A DNA stretch of 64,000 nt from Lobosporangium transversale (taxonomy: Eukaryota). This document shows positions 15,046 to 56,789 of the stretch, piece by piece. Each line of letters begins with the position of its first letter. The stretch's first letter is position 1. Under the pieces are notes generated by a model. The model searched no databases. It was not told the DNA's origin and worked only from the letters and a program-made list of their open reading frames with translations. The position numbers were made by a program, and so were the translations under genes. Where the stretch lies: NCBI RefSeq assembly GCF_002105155.1, contig NW_019028993.1:372001-436000 (forward strand), read 5' to 3'.

Positions 15046-16855
15046 GGTTATTCTTTCTTATGTATTAGGAAGTGTGGATTTAGTTTGGAAATGGATATAG
15101 AATTGGATTTGGACTTGGGATAATGTCTTTTTTCTTTGTTATGGTGTGTTATGTTGAGGTTGAAAAAAAATAAAGATTGGTGGTCGACGTTCAGCTTTTA
15201 TACCTCTTTCTACCTGTCTGCCTGTCTATACTTTTACTTCAATGCTCATTTGAGATACTGTCCGTCTTGGTTTGTCAGTAACTCATAGTTAAAACTATTT
15301 GTATCGAGGAGCCAATTAGTGCGCTTGTTTAGCTACATCGTAGATGCTGTCAATTCACCTGCCGTTTTTAATAAGCCTTTGCTGGTTCTAGAGTGCGCTA
15401 CTAAACTTTACTTTTGACCTTTTTGTCATTAAAGAATAATGGTTACGTATCCCCGATCTTAGAATTCTATTTCGTTTGCCCGATCTTTGCATGATTGATT
15501 AGAAAAAAAAAAAAAAAAACCTTATCTGGAGCAACGAGGGGCGTCTTGACTGCGGAACAGGAGCTATAAAGTTGTAGAGCGTAATGGTATACATACAACG
15601 TGAATACCATTTTTAGGTTCGTGCTATAATTTTCCCATTTTTCCATTTGGAAAGCCGGACCAATCCAAATAGAGAATTCGTTGATGTTTTGGCAAAACTA
15701 ATATCCGCTGCATGCATGCATGCATGTTAGTTACAAATAACGAAACCGAGCTCAGAAAACGATTTTTCTGAAAATAAAAAAAAAGGAGGCCTGCGTTGCT
15801 TGCCTATTGGATTAATTGGATTAATTGTAAGATAGATTACTTTGGGTCAATCAAGAAGAACAAAAGCGTCAACACTATGAAGGACTTTCAAATATGCAAC
15901 CTTCAGTTTGCAAAAAATGGTATCCCTTCCCTTTTTTTGTCAGTTATGCACTTTATCAAAAAAAATGAGGCTCTTCACGAGCCTGCGCAGCTTATGTGCG
16001 GTGCACTCACGCTCATTGACAAATTCTGTCATATAGGTCACAAGGGAATGATTTTCCTTCTAAGTGATTTGTGCCGCTTAGAAATTTCTCACTTTGGTCC
16101 CAGTCTGTCATTGAGCGTTAGTGCGTTGTACATAAGCCACACAGGCTGGTGACGAGTTTATAAAATCCACTTTGACAAAAAGTTCGACCAGACCGTATGA
16201 CTGTGCAATAATGTCTAGCAAGGTTTTTAAAATTATATTTGAGCTTCCCCAACTCATACATTGCTGTCTTGACATAACGAGGATTGCAACCGTTATGATC
16301 AGCATGGAGATGTATGTCGAGTATATGCATATGATATCAGAATGAGTTCAATCTTTGCGTAGGATATAATACTTTGCTTGTTTACCAGAAGCAAAACGCC
16401 GCTCTTAGAGAGTCACAGAGGAGTCGAAGAGTGGTATAAATTTTTAGTTTAAGGGTCCATTTCTACGTTACGCAAAGCTTAAGCTGCAAGTCAACATGCA
16501 GAAACAGGGCAGACAAAAAGCCAGAAGCAAAAACAGCAGAGGAAAAAGGAGTGCGACTTTCTTGTTAAAAATGACTTTCCCTCCGTCTGTGGACCTCTTT
16601 CTATACGGTAATTTATAATTTATATTTTAGATCAGATTATTTTTCTTTTACAGCAGCTCTCACAACGTACAGCATTGATATTTCTAAGAGACAAAGAGTA
16701 GTTCATAATAGTATATGTTTACAATGTTTATTATTCCTAGCCTCATCTCTTTAGTATCGAGAGTAAGAGGTTCGTGATTTCAACCACTAGCCGACTCGAA
16801 TTATCCCTGAGGCTAACTTCATTCTATGAGTGGTATCCTTGCTTGTTCACTCCAT

Positions 16856-17282
16856 TTAAGGCTTGATTGGGGGAATTCTAATATGAATATCGTCGGTGAA
16901 AGTGGGGTCCTTTGGCCCATCCGCCTCGGTGATGCTTTGAGGAGGAATTTTGATATGAGAGTTGGGAATTGGAGGGATCTTGATATGGATGCTATCAGCA
17001 GACTCAGCGACTGGAGGGATTTTAATATGGGTGCCGTCGGTGGAGATGGAGTTCTTTGCTCCATCCGACTCGGCGATTGGCATCTTGATTGGGCCAGCTA
17101 TAGAGTTAAATAGGACAAGATGGTAATGAGCTGAATGTTTAGCATACCCGAACAGTGTACAAATACAACACACAAACACAAGCATGCACATCCACATGGA
17201 CAGGTGTAAAAACCTTACCTTCGGTGGACATAACCAAGGCGGCAACGGTCATGGAAAGGGCGGCAGTGATTGAGAGCTTCAT
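16856..17282 (-). CDS. Secreted repeat-peptide precursor A (101 aa; exons 17282-17219 and 17097-16856)
   Basis: Spliced translation: MKLSITAALSMTVAALVMSTEAGPIKMPIAESDGAKNSISTDGTHIKIPPVAESADSIHIKIPPIPNSHIKIPPQSITEADGPKDPTFTDDIHIRIPPIKP*. GTAAG...TATAG intron, hydrophobic signal peptide, upstream TATA, paralog at 20898. Confidence 0.85.
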
Positions 17283-17368
17283 GATGTGAAATGGATAGTG
17301 GAGATTTAAGGAGCTATTTACAGTGTTGTAAGGTGCTTGAAGAAGAGAGAAGGAAAAAGAGCAAAAGG

Positions 17369-18582
17369 GTCTGGTTTTATATGAAAAAATACATGGATGG
17401 TGAAGCACTTGGTACACCGAGCTTGACACACCGAGCAACCAATAGGTATCTTCAAGTCAAAGATACTTTCCTGTTTGGCTATCTATACTCTATCTCAGTA
17501 ACATCAGGGATCTGAAACACTCACTAGATGTAGAACAGATCGCTTGTGCCGCTATGACAATGTAGTGGGACTATTAAGATATGTAGTCAAAACGCTTGTT
17601 TCACACATTTATGGCTATTCACGTTTTATGGCGCGTGACATGCTCCTCTAACAGTCGTCAATTGAAGTCAAACAGCATTAGTCGAAGTGATACGCTTATG
17701 AAACACCCAATCACGCAAGTCTTGTCGTCATACAAAATTAATGAGGCAGATAAGGTAAACGCAGGATGGGCAGCATATAAATCCTGTAGCTAGAAAGACA
17801 TAGCACGCATGTAGGATAGTTGGGGTAGTTGAGCAGCAGGATGCAGTCATGTATTACAAAACCAAGCAGACGAAGCTGCTTACCTTTGCTGCCACTATCA
17901 TGATCGATGCATTTGTCTTTGGGATGCTCAATCAGGGTCTAACTGTTCACACTATAGAGGCACAAGGCCAATGCGACAGTATTCCAGTCTTGGGGTTTTT
18001 TTTTACCCCTTGGTAGCCAATTGGCCTGTCTTTACTTGCACATATTCTACAGAAGAATAATAATAGCAGGTATGCTACCCCTATCTACTGATTACTAGAT
18101 TTGATTGTTTAAAATGTTTCTAATGATGAACCTAGTTGAATCAGAATTACTCGAGAAACTTCCTGTTTGACTTAAAAATCACAAAGCTTATCTAGGCAAT
18201 CCGTCCAATAGCTAAGATATAACACTTATCTAGGGCTGAAAACTAGAACACGAGCTTAAAGCTCGACTCCATCCTTCTCAATCTGGGGAAATGGAGTTGC
18301 CCTTGTTTCGGGTTAAATAATCTAAACATTTTCACGGTAAATGCGGCTTACAGCGTCCATGATGAAATGAAGCCAAAGTACGCTAGGAAAATCATACCTC
18401 AAGTAGTGAGGCGGTTCAACACTGAATCGAAAAGCCTGCAATCCCTTGGGGCGATTGAAAGCATATCGTTAAAAACCTTTAGAGTCTCCTAGTTGCTTTG
18501 GTTGAATAGCTATCGAGTTTCTATACTGAGGATGTTTAGCGCAGATGTGCCTAGACAAATATTCAGCAACAGGTTACAAAGG
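17369..18582. repeat. Left arm of 1214-bp inverted repeat (promoter of precursor A)
   Basis: Reverse complement of 19599-20812. The coordinate sum is 38181 at both ends and at the identical spurious ORFs 17596-17793 / 20388-20585, so there is no net indel. No mismatch in the segments I compared. Confidence 0.97.
17375..17381 (-). promoter_or_regulatory. TATA box of precursor A
   Basis: TATAAAA on the minus strand ~92 nt upstream of ATG 17282, followed by a pyrimidine-rich leader. Confidence 0.65.
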
Positions 18583-18628
18583 CAAGCTCTACATGGAGAA
18601 AGCGTTGTAATAACCTGCTTACCGGGGG

Positions 18629-18661
<33 letters not shown>

Positions 18662-19598
18662 ACCAGGATGATAGCCACCACAAGTGCAGCTTTGCCATAT
18701 ATAGCCAAGACTATGTTGTTATATATATCAGAACACCTGGATTTACCAGAGGTTCAAGGACAAGCAGCTGTTGCTGAGGTGGGGAGGATGACAACAGAGA
18801 AAGAGAAAGTGACCAAGCGGATAGCCTAGCTAGCCTTGCATTTTAGTCTGAATTGAAAACTTATTCATTGCTTGATAATAAATTAAAGACAATATCTATA
18901 CGTTAATTCTAGTTTTCGTAGATGTGTATTAGAATGAAGTCGATAATCTGACTACTGATAAAATGAGAAAATTATTATACGATGGGCATGTAAAGCGCAT
19001 AAGTCGAGCCTGAATCTTCCAGAAAATGTACATGAGAGGTATTGTAAACGATGCTAGGTGAATGCTGCACAGAAGGAGGAGCTCTTATTCAGTGTACGCG
19101 TGAACATATCGAGATTAAAAGTTTGGTTTTTTGTATTTGCTGAAGGGAAAGTGATACGCTTCGGGTGGAGCTTTTTTCACGAAAGGGCCTACCTGTAAGA
19201 TCAAAGCTGGCTTCACAAGTTCTCTGACTAGAGATAGCATGTCGTGCTCCAATCACTAGTGCTTCATGAACTGGGCTTGCTGCAAGCGTATCCTTTAGCC
19301 TCAGCTAGAACACCATCCAGTGGGAACATGAGTCTAGACTGCAGCTGGGAGTGTTTGAACCTCTTAGGTAGGGGTTCTTGGATTTGCAAGAGTGGACCTG
19401 GCCCTACCGTGTATTCAAACATAAAACATCATTTCTTGAAGATCTGTTGACATCTCGATATATGGTGACCTCATTTACTCATAGTAAACACCAAATAAGC
19501 ATAAGGGAACCATAATCTCTATTGATACTTATAATTATTCAGAGATTCGAAAATATTTAATAGGATTTCTTCATCTTCAAGCAGAAGCTAGATAGGAA

Positions 19599-20812
19599 CC
19601 TTTGTAACCTGTTGCTGAATATTTGTCTAGGCACATCTGCGCTAAACATCCTCAGTATAGAAACTCGATAGCTATTCAACCAAAGCAACTAGGAGACTCT
19701 AAAGGTTTTTAACGATATGCTTTCAATCGCCCCAAGGGATTGCAGGCTTTTCGATTCAGTGTTGAACCGCCTCACTACTTGAGGTATGATTTTCCTAGCG
19801 TACTTTGGCTTCATTTCATCATGGACGCTGTAAGCCGCATTTACCGTGAAAATGTTTAGATTATTTAACCCGAAACAAGGGCAACTCCATTTCCCCAGAT
19901 TGAGAAGGATGGAGTCGAGCTTTAAGCTCGTGTTCTAGTTTTCAGCCCTAGATAAGTGTTATATCTTAGCTATTGGACGGATTGCCTAGATAAGCTTTGT
20001 GATTTTTAAGTCAAACAGGAAGTTTCTCGAGTAATTCTGATTCAACTAGGTTCATCATTAGAAACATTTTAAACAATCAAATCTAGTAATCAGTAGATAG
20101 GGGTAGCATACCTGCTATTATTATTCTTCTGTAGAATATGTGCAAGTAAAGACAGGCCAATTGGCTACCAAGGGGTAAAAAAAAACCCCAAGACTGGAAT
20201 ACTGTCGCATTGGCCTTGTGCCTCTATAGTGTGAACAGTTAGACCCTGATTGAGCATCCCAAAGACAAATGCATCGATCATGATAGTGGCAGCAAAGGTA
20301 AGCAGCTTCGTCTGCTTGGTTTTGTAATACATGACTGCATCCTGCTGCTCAACTACCCCAACTATCCTACATGCGTGCTATGTCTTTCTAGCTACAGGAT
20401 TTATATGCTGCCCATCCTGCGTTTACCTTATCTGCCTCATTAATTTTGTATGACGACAAGACTTGCGTGATTGGGTGTTTCATAAGCGTATCACTTCGAC
20501 TAATGCTGTTTGACTTCAATTGACGACTGTTAGAGGAGCATGTCACGCGCCATAAAACGTGAATAGCCATAAATGTGTGAAACAAGCGTTTTGACTACAT
20601 ATCTTAATAGTCCCACTACATTGTCATAGCGGCACAAGCGATCTGTTCTACATCTAGTGAGTGTTTCAGATCCCTGATGTTACTGAGATAGAGTATAGAT
20701 AGCCAAACAGGAAAGTATCTTTGACTTGAAGATACCTATTGGTTGCTCGGTGTGTCAAGCTCGGTGTACCAAGTGCTTCACCATCCATGTATTTTTTCAT
20801 ATAAAACCAGAC
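19599..20812. repeat. Right arm of 1214-bp inverted repeat (promoter of precursor B)
   Basis: Reverse complement of 17369-18582. The arms are separated by a unique 1016-bp spacer (18583-19598). Confidence 0.97.
20800..20806 (+). promoter_or_regulatory. TATA box of precursor B
   Basis: TATAAAA ~91 nt upstream of ATG 20898. Confidence 0.65.
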
Positions 20813-20897
20813 TCTTTTACTCCTCTTCCTTTTCTTCTTTCAAACACATCACAACACTGTAAAAAGCTCCTCAGGTCTTCTCTATCCATTTCACATC

Positions 20898-21595
20898 ATG
20901 AAGCTCTCAATCACCGCCGCCCTTTCCGTGGCTGCTGCCGCCTTGGTTATGTCTACCGAAGGTAAGATCTTTACACCTGTCCATACTCCTGTGCATGTTT
21001 GCGTCTGCGTGTTTTGTATTTATACACTGTTCAAGTATGCTAATAGTCAGCTCATTACCATCTTGTCCTATTTAACTCTATAGCTGGCCCAATCAAGAAG
21101 ATCCCACTCGCCACAGTCAAGGAGGCATCTGGACCTCATCTCACTGACTCGGCCAAAGAGGAATCTAGATGGAAGCTCATTGAACTCAAGGGACCTCATC
21201 TCGTTGATGACTCTGTCGAGGAGGATTCTAAATGGGGCACAATTATATATGGATCGAGTCACGGGCCATTCAAGGGACCTCATCTCGTTGATGACTCGGC
21301 CAAGGAGGCTAGACACCCCATCTGGTACAAGGGACCTCATCTCATTGATGACTCAGTCAAGGAGGCTTCTGGGCCTCATCTCGTTGACTCGGTCAAAGAG
21401 GAATCTAGACGGTTCCCCATTGAATTCAAGGGACCTCGTTTCGATGATGACTCGGCCAAGGAGGCTAGATATGATTATGGAGTCAAGCCACTCAAGGGAC
21501 CTCGTTTCGATGATGACTCAGTCAAGGAGGATAGGCATATCAAGGTCCCAATCGGTCCAATCAAGAAGGCATCTGGACCTCATCTCGCTGACTAG
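20898..21595 (+). CDS. Secreted multi-core repeat-peptide precursor B (191 aa; exons 20898-20961 and 21084-21595)
   Basis: Spliced translation: MKLSITAALSVAAAALVMSTEAGPIKKIPLATVKEASGPHLTDSAKEESRWKLIELKGPHLVDDSVEEDSKWGTIIYGSSHGPFKGPHLVDDSAKEARHPIWYKGPHLIDDSVKEASGPHLVDSVKEESRRFPIEFKGPRFDDDSAKEARYDYGVKPLKGPRFDDDSVKEDRHIKVPIGPIKKASGPHLAD*. GTAAG...TATAG intron in the same phase and position as in paralog A. Confidence 0.88.
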
Positions 21596-22110
21596 ATCAT
21601 GAAGGCGTCACGCCCCATCGGGAAATAGACAGCTCATTCAAGGCTTCTAGGATCCAGAGAAGGGGCAATTCATGGGGATCGACTTATGGAATGAAATCAG
21701 TCTTAGGAATGATGTTAACTGTGTACAGGAATAACGACTCTCAATACTAAACATGTTAAGACCAGAAATAAATGTAAATATTATAAATTACTTTTTGCCT
21801 CTTAAAAATATCAATGCTGTATATTGTGAGAGCTGTGAGGAAAAACAATATGACCTAAATTACAACAAGGAGCTTCGTAATATGATATATTCGTGGGTTA
21901 CTGGATCACTGGATCTCAAAGGGAAAAATAGAAAAGAAAAGAAACATAATGAAAAGTAATGAAAAAGAATAGAGAATTAGAAAAAAAAAAAAAAAAAAAA
22001 AAAAAGTAAAAAAGGATAATAGAAAAAAGTAAGGATAAGAATATTAAAAAATGGAAAAAAGTAACCCTGTCTCTTTACCTATCTCTTTACCAATTCTTCC
22101 ATATTTTTTA

Positions 22111-22632: not shown

Positions 22633-22730
22633 AAAAATAAAAATAAAAATAAAAATAAAAATAAAAATAAAAATAAAAATAAAAATAAAAATAAAAATAA
22701 AAATAAAAATAAAAATAAAAATAAAAATAA
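22633..22730. repeat. (AAAAAT)~16 hexamer microsatellite
   Basis: Direct reading; it generates the spurious KIKIKI / NKNKNK / FYFYFY ORFs. Confidence 0.95.
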
Positions 22731-53514: not shown

Positions 53515-53846
53515 GGTTTACCCGTTGTCACATGAGATCCTCAACAATGACAGTGATGTGTGAAGGTCGCACAGGGCTCCCTGGCGGATTAATACATATG
53601 GTGGCGCCTCTTCATTTATTCGCCCGCATCGGTGTATCAAATCTATGTACGATACGAAAAACCGCAATAAATTTTGTCCTGGGCCATCCTTCCTTCTTTT
53701 CATTTACTCATTTTTACTTCATTTCATTCCATTGGAAGTTCAATTCGTTCTCTCGTTTCTGTACTCTTATTTTAATATCTTTCAGAAACGTGGCAACTGT
53801 GCATCCCATTAAAATCTTGACTGATATTCAATAACTACCTGACTTT

Positions 53847-56789
53847 ATGAGTCGCTTCTCCAGTATCGGCACGACCACTACAATGTACAACAGTGGGTCT
53901 TCATTCACGCACAGTTCTACACCCCACCCGAAAAGCGATCTGATCATGGCTCCAAAACGTTCACTTCCTCCACCACCCCCTATTCCTTCATCAACAGCTA
54001 CACCACCAAAACGACCAGTACCATCTCTCCCTACAACAACTGATGATGAACGATTACCCCAGGCTGCAGCTACGTCTCCAAAGCGATCGCTGCCTCCACC
54101 ACCAACGCCACCCACCAGTAGAGAGCACAGTAGCATAGCACCGCCGCCCCGGTCATTACCACGCCCGCTCTCTGTTGTCTCTCTTACCAAGCCCAATCGA
54201 CCTATACCCTCTATCCCAGCACCATCTCATACCCACATCGAAAGCGAAGATAATGAGAAAACTCTCCATGCTCCTACAACTCCTGAGACCCCAACCGGGA
54301 TTGCGCCAGTACCATCGCCGCGTCGTCTCAGTATTATTGAAGGACTGGCCAAACCACCAATCATTCGTCCGTCATCCATGGTTTCTGTCAATTCAATCCG
54401 AACATCTGAAAAACATACCTCTTCTATTTATGAAGAAGACGAAGAGGAGCATGGACCAGTGAAGGTGCAAGAGCAAGAGCAAGGGCCAAGGGAGGATAAC
54501 GCACCAATGTCTCCGATACATTCAACGACTATGCCTGCTGTACCTTGGTTAGCTGAACTGGAAAACAGGCGAGCTGGATTGAATTCTACTAAGAAACCGC
54601 CAGCCGAGCATTCAAGTCATATCTCTTCAGATTCTGCTCAAACACCTCTCGAATCTTCGAAACGAGTCATCTCCACTTCAAAATCACCTCAAACCTTAGT
54701 AACGAATGGATATCAGAAAAATCTGGTCCCTGTGCCCTCAACACACGTTCATTCACTAAAACACACAACACCCACATCTCCAAAGCCAGTACCAGTATCA
54801 ATAACCACGTCCTCCGTCACACAGACAACCGGTGTAGTTCTACCTAAACGCGCCGTGCCCCGATCCCCAGTTACTCCAAGGTCGTCAGAGTCAACGCAGG
54901 GAGACAAACTATCACCTATTCCTAACCGGTCGGGATCAAACATTTTGAAGAAGATTGAGGAGCTACATCTAAATGAAGAATCACCTGCACCTCCACACCC
55001 ACCCTTGCCACCTTCCAAACCACGAAGATTACCCTGCATTACTCCAGTTCGTGATGATCAGACAGCGGAGCGTGTGCAACAAACGCAGTTCAAGATCGAG
55101 CCGCCTCTTCCTATCCCAGCACCTATACCACCATCTCTTCCACAAAGGCGCCCAACTATATCACAAAAACCAACTCCTCCTCCCCCTCCTCCTCCACGCC
55201 CTACGCTGCCGCAACGTCCTGAAACACTGCAACACCCCGAACCTCTTCAACGTCCAGAACTGCCTCGGCGACCAGAGTTACCTCAGCGTCCCCCTCTACC
55301 AAAGCGCCCTGGACAGCAAATGCAGCAGCAGCAGACTACGACACATAGCCATCATTCATCCTCACAGTCTTTCTCGAGCGTACAAACCTCAACAACCACA
55401 GTTAACGGGTTTTCCAGTCATTTTTCACAAAAGGCTTCAGTATCATGCACGTCATTGATTGAGCTTCAGTCAGGCGAAGATGCTGTCAGTGCACTCAATC
55501 GAACTTCACCAATGTTTACACCAGAATTCAATGGTGAGAGACTAGATCTAAGCCTAGCAGATTTTTCAGCGATGGACGACCATGCCAGGTCATGTCCACG
55601 GTCCGAAGAGGAAAGCATTGCTAGACTCTCTTACTATTTGACATCGCCCTTCCAAGGTGACCAAGTGGCACAACTGAGGACGATCTTTACATGGCTCGCT
55701 ACTAATATTGAGTATAACATGAAGGGACTATTATCCGGTAACTTTGGCGATAACTCTGCCGAGACCGTCCTCCGAACCAAGACTGGAGTCTGTGCAGGGT
55801 TTTCAAATCTTTTCATGGCTCTTGCGGCTCCGGCACAGTTGGGTGTGACACAGGTGACGGGTGTTGCTCGTGGATATGGGGTCGAGGTTGGAGGTGACTC
55901 GTTGGGTGCAGGACATGCGTGGAATGCGGTAACGATTTCAGGAGAATGCCTATTAATTGATTCGACATGGGGTGCAGGAGCAGATGATCCGACAACGGGA
56001 ATGAGCAAGATGTTTAAACCACAGTACTTCCTGATACGCCCAGAGTGGTTAATCTATAGTCATTGGCCAAATCAACCACAAGATCAATTTCTGAACCCAC
56101 CTATTCATGTGGATGTGTATCGCGCGCTGCCTTTCCGAATGATAGATTCATGGACGCTGGGTATTGTCCCAATCGGAGTGAATAGCACGCACACGGTGTA
56201 TACAGATAATGATTACTTTGAGCTTGAAATCTTGCTTGAGAAACAAGCATGGAATGGAGCAACTGCGTTCATGGCATCTCACCTGGACTGGAAGACTACA
56301 GGCGAAAGAATCAAGGCAGCTCGTCACTGGACTCGTGAAGATGAGAAGGGTATCATCATGACAATCAAATGTATTTGCCCCACACCAGGATTCGGGACAC
56401 TGATGGTCTATGGAATGCCTGCGACTAGCACTGAAGGTCACTCAATCAACGTTCTGCAGTACAAGATCGTGAATAATGGTAGTGGGGCAAACGCAATGCC
56501 CATGATGGAGACGTATGATGTACTGGGGTTTTCGTTTTCAATCATGGAGCCTATTACAGCACGCGTTCAAAGTGGTGTTACACAGACCATCCGCGTCAAG
56601 ATCTTTAATGTACAGAAGGGAGAAACGGCGCCTAGGCCCGTATTGGTGGGCGGGTTTATGCCTGATCCGATGAAGGAGATAGGACAAGGATTGTATGAGT
56701 TACAGAAGACACTGAGGCCTGGCGAATACAAGATTGGGTTCATGAAGGGCATCTCCATGGGTCTCCTTGGTGTCTTCCATGCAGTATAG
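53847..56789 (+). CDS. Transglutaminase-like (KY peptidase / Cyk3-type domain) protein with long Pro-rich N-terminus, single exon
   Basis: LRTIFTWLATNIEY, GVCAGFSNLF (Cys), HAWNAV (His), LIDSTWGAG (Asp), YFLIRPEWLIYSHWP. Confidence 0.9.
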   Translation: MSRFSSIGTTTTMYNSGSSFTHSSTPHPKSDLIMAPKRSLPPPPPIPSSTATPPKRPVPSLPTTTDDERLPQAAATSPKRSLPPPPTPPTSREHSSIAPPPRSLPRPLSVVSLTKPNRPIPSIPAPSHTHIESEDNEKTLHAPTTPETPTGIAPVPSPRRLSIIEGLAKPPIIRPSSMVSVNSIRTSEKHTSSIYEEDEEEHGPVKVQEQEQGPREDNAPMSPIHSTTMPAVPWLAELENRRAGLNSTKKPPAEHSSHISSDSAQTPLESSKRVISTSKSPQTLVTNGYQKNLVPVPSTHVHSLKHTTPTSPKPVPVSITTSSVTQTTGVVLPKRAVPRSPVTPRSSESTQGDKLSPIPNRSGSNILKKIEELHLNEESPAPPHPPLPPSKPRRLPCITPVRDDQTAERVQQTQFKIEPPLPIPAPIPPSLPQRRPTISQKPTPPPPPPPRPTLPQRPETLQHPEPLQRPELPRRPELPQRPPLPKRPGQQMQQQQTTTHSHHSSSQSFSSVQTSTTTVNGFSSHFSQKASVSCTSLIELQSGEDAVSALNRTSPMFTPEFNGERLDLSLADFSAMDDHARSCPRSEEESIARLSYYLTSPFQGDQVAQLRTIFTWLATNIEYNMKGLLSGNFGDNSAETVLRTKTGVCAGFSNLFMALAAPAQLGVTQVTGVARGYGVEVGGDSLGAGHAWNAVTISGECLLIDSTWGAGADDPTTGMSKMFKPQYFLIRPEWLIYSHWPNQPQDQFLNPPIHVDVYRALPFRMIDSWTLGIVPIGVNSTHTVYTDNDYFELEILLEKQAWNGATAFMASHLDWKTTGERIKAARHWTREDEKGIIMTIKCICPTPGFGTLMVYGMPATSTEGHSINVLQYKIVNNGSGANAMPMMETYDVLGFSFSIMEPITARVQSGVTQTIRVKIFNVQKGETAPRPVLVGGFMPDPMKEIGQGLYELQKTLRPGEYKIGFMKGISMGLLGVFHAV

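What the first reader, a model, noticed from the sequence alone, without database searches (positions are those of the whole stretch)
16856..17282. Precursor A: signal peptide plus four H-I-(K/R)-I-P-P units between acidic spacers
After splicing, a 101-aa secreted protein carries THIKIPPV, IHIKIPPI, SHIKIPPQ and IHIRIPPIKP, mostly separated by D/E/S/T-rich linkers, with no Cys and no KR site. Here the cationic Pro-rich unit is conserved and the spacers vary, the opposite of paralog B. B's last core (HIKVPIGPIK) resembles this unit, which links the two genes. Inference: a multicopy precursor for one short peptide.
Basis: partly seen in the sequence, partly recalled or inferred. Interest (0 to 1): 0.7.

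Follow-up and report, generated by a model that had tools for sequence, protein, structure and literature searches.

The report
Orphan fungal repeat-peptide precursor gene
A soil fungus carries a small orphan gene whose protein is predicted to be secreted and holds four copies of a six-residue, proline-ended unit; it is likely cut into short peptides by a route other than the usual fungal one, though no such peptide has been detected yet.

Summary
Splicing 17218-17098 gives a 101-aa protein identical to an unnamed Lobosporangium transversale (Mortierellaceae) gene model. It has a signal-like N-terminus, four HI(K/R)IPP units (0 of 3000 shuffles reach four), no Cys and no dibasic site. The units differ by five synonymous changes and one K>R. 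A and neighbour B are a head-to-head inverted duplication. Their upstream 1,214 bp are 100% identical up to just past the TATA-like box, while the genes have diverged. One public RNA-type run holds a further, non-identical copy with tandem IHIKIPP-VAESADS units and three more signal-exon relatives, so this is a small family. No homologue outside the species, no Pfam or PDB match, and no tailoring enzyme nearby was found. A fails the KEP definition and lacks the single Arg that precedes most of B's cores. Best reading (0.45): a Kex2-independent multicopy precursor of short linear Pro-Pro-ended peptides. Rivals: an intact disordered multivalent protein (0.25), an unprocessed offshoot of B (0.15), sponge-like cyclic heptapeptides (0.08). 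Processing, product and function are untested. New variant of a known kind.

The parts
17219..17282 (-). Gene A exon 1: predicted signal peptide (codons 1-21 and first base of Ala22)
   Evidence: 58 of 64 nt identical to B exon 1; SignalP not run
17098..17218 (-). Gene A intron, 121 nt, GT..AG, branch-like TTAAC starting 12 nt from the end; alternative in-frame acceptor at 17131 (+11 aa)
   Evidence: matches database gene model P0001; not bridged by RNA
16856..17097 (-). Gene A exon 2: 79-aa mature region with four units, ends in TAA
17012..17029 (-). Unit 1 HIKIPP
16970..16987 (-). Unit 2 HIKIPP
16940..16957 (-). Unit 3 HIKIPP (follows unit 2 after a 4-residue non-acidic linker)
16868..16885 (-). 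Unit 4 HIRIPP, followed by IKP and stop
17078..17095 (-). N-terminal GPIKMP, a possible fifth, degenerate cationic Pro unit; B starts GPIKKIP
   Evidence: sequence; resemblance judged by eye
17369..18582 (-). Upstream arm of A, 1,214 bp, 100% identical to the arm upstream of B; includes the TATA-like TATAAAA at 17381-17375 and ends 6 nt past it
18583..19598 (.). Unique 1,016-bp spacer between the inverted arms
19599..20812 (+). Upstream arm of B, perfect inverted copy of 17369-18582
20898..21595 (+). Paralog B, 191 aa: exon 1 20898-20961, intron 20962-21083, exon 2 21084-21595; conserved acidic/KGPHL-type flanks around six variable cores, last core HIKVPIGPIK at 21536-21565
   Evidence: identical to P0002, which is on record under two locus-tag series
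16620..16710 (-). 3' block shared with B (21779-21865), 74 of 91 columns identical; likely 3'-end signal

Best explanation
Gene A encodes a 101-aa protein with four HI(K/R)IPP units that is predicted to be secreted and is likely cut, without Kex2-type dibasic sites, into short linear cationic peptides ending in Pro-Pro that would act outside the cell. Shown: the gene structure, the repeats, their codon pattern, the paralogy with B and the shared promoter. Inferred: (1) the 22-aa leader takes it into the ER and is removed after T-E-A; (2) the acidic, unfolded spacers neutralise the cationic units in transit (mature net charge -2 without His); (3) the spacers are opened by a late-Golgi or secreted endoprotease (lone Lys36/Lys83 or the Asp/Ser stretches) and trimmed, with a post-proline cut or stall at Pro-Pro setting the C-terminus; (4) the 6-8-residue product is likely a sequence-specific ligand or peptidase inhibitor used in antagonism or signalling, because the exact hexamer, not just its composition, is kept; (5) A and B would be co-expressed from their identical promoters as a peptide cocktail. 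The protease and the target are not identified.
For: Four units, 0 of 3000 shuffles. Among the four units 5 of 6 variable positions are synonymous and the sixth is K>R (binomial p=0.003 at 4 of 18 synonymous sites, inflated because units were picked by amino-acid identity). Internal control: in the duplicated 22-codon module, 9 of 16 spacer codons change amino acid against 1 of 6 core codons. Linker lengths of 8, 4 and 18 residues show that spacing is free. No fold predicted (Atlas pLDDT 0.28), no Cys. Paralog B has the classic layout of fixed flanks and variable cores, with single Arg/Lys before the cores, and monobasic cleavage of fungal repeat precursors has been seen by peptidomics (PMC9769878, passages). 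A relative in run X1 repeats core plus spacer in tandem, with two synonymous differences from A in that spacer. Multi-core precursors of Pro-ended peptides that are really processed exist in sponges (PMC10945851, Results) and snakes (PMC5657115, passages).
Against: No peptide or protein data. No dibasic site, no Arg outside the fourth core, and no common motif flanking the four units (before: DGT, DSI, PNS, DDI; after: VAE, IPN, QSI, IKP). A lacks the SVKEDR element that precedes B's matching core. The core-versus-spacer contrast is only borderline (Fisher p=0.057 on changes, p=0.16 on codons). No protease or tailoring enzyme among the 10 flanking frames and 34 of 52 nearby frames scanned. No orthologue in other species to test conservation.
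Confidence: 0.45

Rival explanations
1. A is secreted and stays intact as a disordered, possibly O-glycosylated protein in which HI(K/R)IPP is a repeated binding or self-assembly motif (multivalent ligand, metal-binding or hyphal surface coat). The alternating I-H-I-K-I pattern could form an amphipathic strand.
For: No recognisable cleavage motif; 12 Ser/Thr in 79 residues; conserved motif with free spacers also fits multivalent linear motifs; the Ustilago repeat protein Rep1 gives amyloid-like fibrils (PMC9769878, passage); the designed peptide IHIHIQI appears in the catalytic-amyloid literature (search listing only; its zinc binding is recalled).
Against: Paralog B has hypervariable cores between fixed flanks, hard to explain for an intact structural protein. 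Pro-Pro after a five-residue strand disfavours beta assembly (general knowledge). No anchor-like C-terminus or Cys.
Confidence: 0.25
2. A is a drifting offshoot of a B-like precursor that lost its monobasic processing sites; its repeats come from recent internal duplication and have little function of their own.
For: A's last module aligns with B's last module but without SVKEDR (local score reached by 10 of 2000 shuffles, segment chosen after inspection). The spacer pair has 9 amino-acid changes in 16 codons. A's 90% cluster has one member on one contig, whereas B's sequence is on two.
Against: Open frame, intact splice sites and signal exon; 5 synonymous versus 1 conservative change in the cores; promoter identical to B's; a related copy with more units is present in an RNA-type run.
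Confidence: 0.15
3. The 7-mers (T/I/S)HI(K/R)IPP are excised and head-to-tail cyclised in the secretory pathway, like sponge proline-rich macrocyclic peptides, making this a ribosomal cyclic-peptide family of an early-diverging fungus.
For: Size and Pro-Pro end match sponge cores such as VYPYKPP and IYPFPPP; signal peptide, multi-core layout and an intron after the signal are shared (PMC10945851). B's cores could also be read as ending in KGP. The X1 relative has a constant spacer that could be a recognition sequence.
Against: Sponge precursors have one near-identical recognition sequence; A's flanks differ at every unit. No DUF3328 protein or prolyl oligopeptidase among frames scanned. No paper tying Mortierella to ribosomal cyclic peptides surfaced.
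Confidence: 0.08

Closest known systems
KEX2-processed repeat proteins (KEPs; Le Marquer 2019 PMC6339444, Umemura 2020 PMC7329392, Vogt 2022 PMC9769878)
   Same: Fungal, signal peptide, three or more short internal repeats, no fold, lineage-restricted sequence, acidic spacers.
   Different: No KR/KK/RK/RR site at all in A; units are 6-7 aa; no XA/XP Ste13 run before the cores. A and B are absent from Umemura's tables, where this species has a count of 0.
Sponge proline-rich macrocyclic peptide (PRMP) precursors (PMC10945851)
   Same: Signal peptide, intron after the signal, multiple about 7-residue cores ending in Pro or Pro-Pro, growth by tandem duplication, similar cores grouped in one precursor.
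   Different: Animal, unrelated in sequence; one conserved recognition motif (FMPDEVKKQ) that A lacks; cyclic products shown by MS there, nothing shown here.
Snake bradykinin-potentiating peptide precursors (PMC5657115)
   Same: Multi-peptide precursor; products end in Ile-Pro-Pro, some in KIPP.
   Different: BPPs start with pyroglutamate from Gln and carry further prolines; A's units are not preceded by Gln. Convergence on a Pro-Pro end at most; no homology.
Dikaritin-type fungal RiPP precursors (ustiloxin, epichloecyclin)
   Same: Secreted multi-core precursor layout, closer for B than for A.
   Different: Need Kex2 sites and nearby DUF3328 genes; neither found here. A's cores have no Tyr/Phe for cross-linking (requirement recalled).
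Ustilago maydis Rep1 repellent precursor
   Same: Secreted repeat protein whose units could be amphipathic.
   Different: Rep1 is a KEP with much longer peptides (length recalled); A's units are six residues with a Pro-Pro cap.

Membership tests
KEP (Umemura 2020 definition) | ER signal peptide | tested here: inconclusive
   Hydrophobic residues 1-21 and T-E-A end (by eye); SignalP not available.
KEP (Umemura 2020 definition) | Three or more tandem repeats | tested here: met
   Four units, 0 of 3000 shuffles.
KEP (Umemura 2020 definition) | Repeats of 8 aa or more lying between Kex2 sites (KR, KK, RK, RR) | tested here: not met
   No dibasic pair in A; B has only KK26, RR130, KK182. Definition read in Methods.
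KEP (Umemura 2020 definition) | Peptides released in vivo | not testable with these tools
   Needs peptidomics.
Dikaritin RiPP | DUF3328/UstYa gene near the precursor | tested here: not met
   No such Pfam hit in 10 flanking frames or 34 of 52 frames of 60 aa or more at 15.1-25.1 kb; not every exon of the window was scanned.
Sponge-type PRMP precursor | Cores of about 7 aa ending in Pro | tested here: met
   (T/I/S)HI(K/R)IPP, if the cut is after PP.
Sponge-type PRMP precursor | One conserved recognition sequence between cores | tested here: not met
   Three different linkers in A; a constant linker is seen only in the X1 relative and in B.
Sponge-type PRMP precursor | Head-to-tail cyclic product | not testable with these tools
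   Needs LC-MS/MS.
Bradykinin-potentiating peptides | N-terminal pyroglutamate (Gln before core) | tested here: not met
   Units are preceded by T, I, S, I; pattern from PMC5657115.
Bradykinin-potentiating peptides | C-terminal Ile-Pro-Pro | tested here: inconclusive
   IPP ends each unit, but the cut position is unknown.

The most novel reading that the evidence does not exclude
A, B and their unseen relatives are the precursors of a first ribosomal peptide natural-product family of the Mortierellaceae: Pro-ended cores excised by a Kex2-independent, post-proline secretory protease and cyclised (for A, cyclo-IHIKIPP and kin), convergent with sponge PRMPs and invisible to every KEP survey that demands dibasic sites.
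Probability: 0.1. Interest if true: 0.8.

Novelty: new variant of a known kind. Interest (0 to 1): 0.4.

Why it matters
Published surveys of fungal repeat-peptide precursors require dibasic sites, and this species scored zero in the larger one. If A is processed, those surveys miss a class of precursors, and early-diverging soil fungi make ribosomal peptides by another protease route. The prediction is cheap to test: a handful of exact masses in culture fluid. The 1.2-kb perfect promoter palindrome driving two diverged precursors is a side curiosity about how such genes stay co-regulated. If A stays intact, it is one more orphan secreted repeat protein and matters little.

Tried and rejected
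No whole genome is held for this window, so the family could not be listed by tBLASTn. Word-index searches with mature A found only A at 43-139 aa (1 of 1 candidate) and 0 of 14 candidates at 140-2000 aa; mature B found only B (1 of 1613 candidates). phmmer on 1.84 billion representatives gave A plus two long low-complexity proteins (E about 1e-4), read and rejected as chance. Pfam 0 families for A and B; PDB 0 at E<=10; Rfam 0 at 15-25 kb. Metagenome scans: 0 of 250 and 0 of 84 pattern hits confirmed. ESM Atlas: best 0.79 for A and 0.88 for B (unnamed fungal clusters); an alpha-mating-factor cluster at 0.79 for B; all under 0.9, leads only. No RNA holder is listed as such, and run X1 has no contig 99% alike to A itself, nor one bridging its intron (0 of 9 laid); contigs are filtered, so this says nothing on A's expression, and contig depth was not used to rank genes. 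Assembly artefact for the inverted repeat was rejected by inference: the arms have a unique 1-kb spacer and lead into two different genes (83-88% identical per 100 nt). No other HI[KR][IV]P frame in the window besides A's four and B's one. Paper searches for the motifs and locus tag listed only unrelated titles (15 of 25 listed); 30 of 33 papers naming the species were listed and none concerns these genes by title or abstract start; searches gave no Mortierellaceae peptide-precursor paper. Earlier scan notes by place and by sequence were empty. No fold or complex job was sent: a 79-aa disordered orphan without an alignment would not be informative. bioRxiv supplements are closed and subscription papers are not searched, so an unseen listing of these genes is possible.

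Full report
Observation. On the minus strand an ATG at 17282 opens a 64-nt exon, followed by a 121-nt GT..AG intron (17218-17098) and a 242-nt exon ending in TAA at 16856. The spliced product is 101 aa and is letter-identical to P0001, a hypothetical protein of Lobosporangium transversale (ORZ18313.1, XP_021882108.1). Unspliced, the frame stops after 47 aa. The protein has a hydrophobic N-terminus ending in T-E-A, no Cys, no dibasic pair and four units: HIKIPP three times and HIRIPP once. No shuffle of 3000 gave four such copies. Two of the three linkers are acidic; the one between units 2 and 3 is four residues and neutral. One addition: a second acceptor at 17131 is in frame and would add 11 residues; B has the same alternative, and the last 37 nt of the two introns are identical while the whole introns agree at 104 of 123 columns. 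The repeats are unaffected either way.

Selection on the unit. Across the four units six of 18 nucleotide columns vary; five changes are synonymous and one is K>R. This test is biased, because the units were chosen for amino-acid identity. A fairer control is internal: units 1 and 4 sit in two copies of a 22-codon module (50 of 66 nt identical), in which 9 of 16 spacer codons but only 1 of 6 core codons change amino acid. The contrast is in the expected direction but borderline (Fisher p=0.057 on change counts, with two-base codons split by eye; p=0.16 on codons). Three acidic residues are among the seven spacer positions kept.

Surroundings. A faces away from paralog B (plus strand, 20898-21595, 191 aa, identical to P0002). 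The two arose by inverted duplication: 17083-18582 matches 19599-21098 at 97%. The identity is uneven. From 18582 to 17369 (1,214 bp) the arms are 100% identical, ending 6 nt past a TATA-like TATAAAA; then the leader (69 of 86), exon 1 (58 of 64), intron (104 of 123) and a 3' block (74 of 91) are diverged. A recent copy-over of the promoter between old paralogs is the simplest reading (inference), and it predicts co-expression. B has fixed flanks (acidic run, then single Arg or Lys; KGP(H/R)(L/F) after) around six variable cores. The mature parts of A and B are only weakly alike overall (50 of 2000 shuffles reach the score; BLASTP E 0.02-0.07), but A's last module lines up with B's last module apart from B's SVKEDR just before the core. 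So A lacks the basic residue that could release B's core. Neighbours are housekeeping genes (alcohol dehydrogenase, ribosomal S11, Gtr1/RagA, AMP-binding enzyme). No protease, DUF3328 or other tailoring family was found in 10 flanking frames or in 34 of the 52 stop-to-stop frames of 60 aa or more at 15.1-25.1 kb (the 18 left out were mirror copies, frames over A or B, and simple repeats).

A wider family. One public run, X1, was listed (RNA status is the tool's guess; it may not be independent of the window's source). It behaves like RNA of this species: two contigs match the neighbouring dehydrogenase gene with no differing letters and one skips an 84-nt intron. At 80% likeness 9 contigs were laid on A, 8 shown. 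Five lie on the repeats with 2-9 differences each; all four that cover 16994 carry a change there, and three carry one at 16991, both synonymous (read). The loose ends of the longest translate to AESADS upstream and IPPVAE downstream, so that sequence holds more tandem core-plus-VAESADS units than A does. Because the dehydrogenase shows no differences, a further paralog is more likely than an allele (inference). Three other contigs match the signal exon (4-12 differences) and run on into different sequences; two loose ends read by eye as APNSVDANP and FTPNVEAAP, whose VDA and VEA agree with a cut after A's TEA. None of these relatives turned up in the protein searches. Whether A itself is transcribed is open.

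Relatives elsewhere. None found: (details under Tried and rejected). The family is an orphan as far as these collections reach; short low-complexity repeats are hard to detect, so distant kin are not excluded.

How it likely works. Shown: gene, repeats, codon pattern, paralogy, identical promoters. Inferred: ER import and signal removal; acidic unfolded spacers that mask cationic units; opening of the spacers by a protease other than dibasic-specific Kex2; a C-terminus set at Pro-Pro; release of several near-identical 6-8-residue peptides. Exact conservation of the hexamer points to a specific protein target rather than a bulk property, so an antagonistic or signalling ligand, possibly a peptidase inhibitor, is my choice (0.45 for processing to linear peptides; the target is a guess). 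The main weakness is the absence of any common cleavage motif in A. An intact multivalent or surface protein (0.25), an unprocessed offshoot of B (0.15) and cyclic heptapeptides (0.08) remain.

Comparison with known systems. It works like a KEP in layout but is not one: Umemura's rule needs three or more repeats of 8 aa or more between KR/KK/RK/RR sites (PMC7329392, Methods section 13; also outline and passages). Her supplementary tables list the species with a count of 0 and hold neither accession nor motif (3 files searched; I take that column to be the KEP count). Le Marquer's pipeline also demands KEX2 sites (PMC6339444, passages). Vogt et al. saw products cut after single Arg or ending in Lys (PMC9769878, passages), which makes processing of B plausible but does not help A. 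Sponge PRMP precursors (PMC10945851, abstract and Results) share signal, post-signal intron, multi-core layout and Pro-ended 7-mers, but have one conserved recognition motif. Snake BPPs end in IPP, some in KIPP, but start with pyroglutamate (PMC5657115, passages). These are analogies, not homologies. Three earlier scan notes on dibasic-site precursors in other fungi show only that the general layout is common; I did not test them.

Verdict. A real, orphan, secreted-type repeat gene in a small lineage-specific family; a variant of the fungal multicopy peptide precursor that lacks the defining Kex2 sites. Nothing here shows a product or function. Interest 0.4; 0.8 if cyclic or otherwise modified peptides are found.

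Noticed in passing
window 17369-18582 and 19599-20812: Perfect 1,214-bp inverted repeat forming the upstream regions of A and B, stopping 6 nt past the TATA-like box while everything downstream is about 80-90% identical; suggests recent promoter conversion. No Pfam or Rfam feature found in it.
   Followed up: partly
window 17098-17134 and 21047-21083: Last 37 nt of the A and B introns are identical and contain an in-frame alternative acceptor adding the same 11 residues to both proteins.
   Followed up: partly
window 21084-21595: Paralog B is the better candidate for a processed precursor: six different cores between fixed acidic/single-basic and KGP(H/R)(L/F) flanks; identical protein under two locus-tag series. 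Its expression was not examined.
   Followed up: partly
run X1 contigs laid on window 17227-17304: Three further signal-exon relatives with different downstream sequence; one has by far the largest depth figure of the contigs laid (1532, a poor measure of expression).
   Followed up: partly
window 17218-17190: The start of A's intron reads in frame as VFTP (B: IFTP), like the FTP in one relative's signal-peptide end; the intron may have arisen from former coding sequence. By eye only, may be chance.
   Followed up: no
window 21086-21592: B's repeated ASGP flank recalls the SGP motif of plant PIP/CLE-type peptides (recalled, untested).
   Followed up: no
window 53835-56789: 984-aa frame with a long Pro-rich N-terminal part and a transglutaminase-like core plus KY-like Ig domain; probably a Cyk3/KY-type protein (name recalled).
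   Followed up: no
window 22633-22730: Perfect hexanucleotide microsatellite of about 98 nt in the 3.5-kb stretch between B and the Gtr1/RagA gene, where no Pfam family was found.
   Followed up: no
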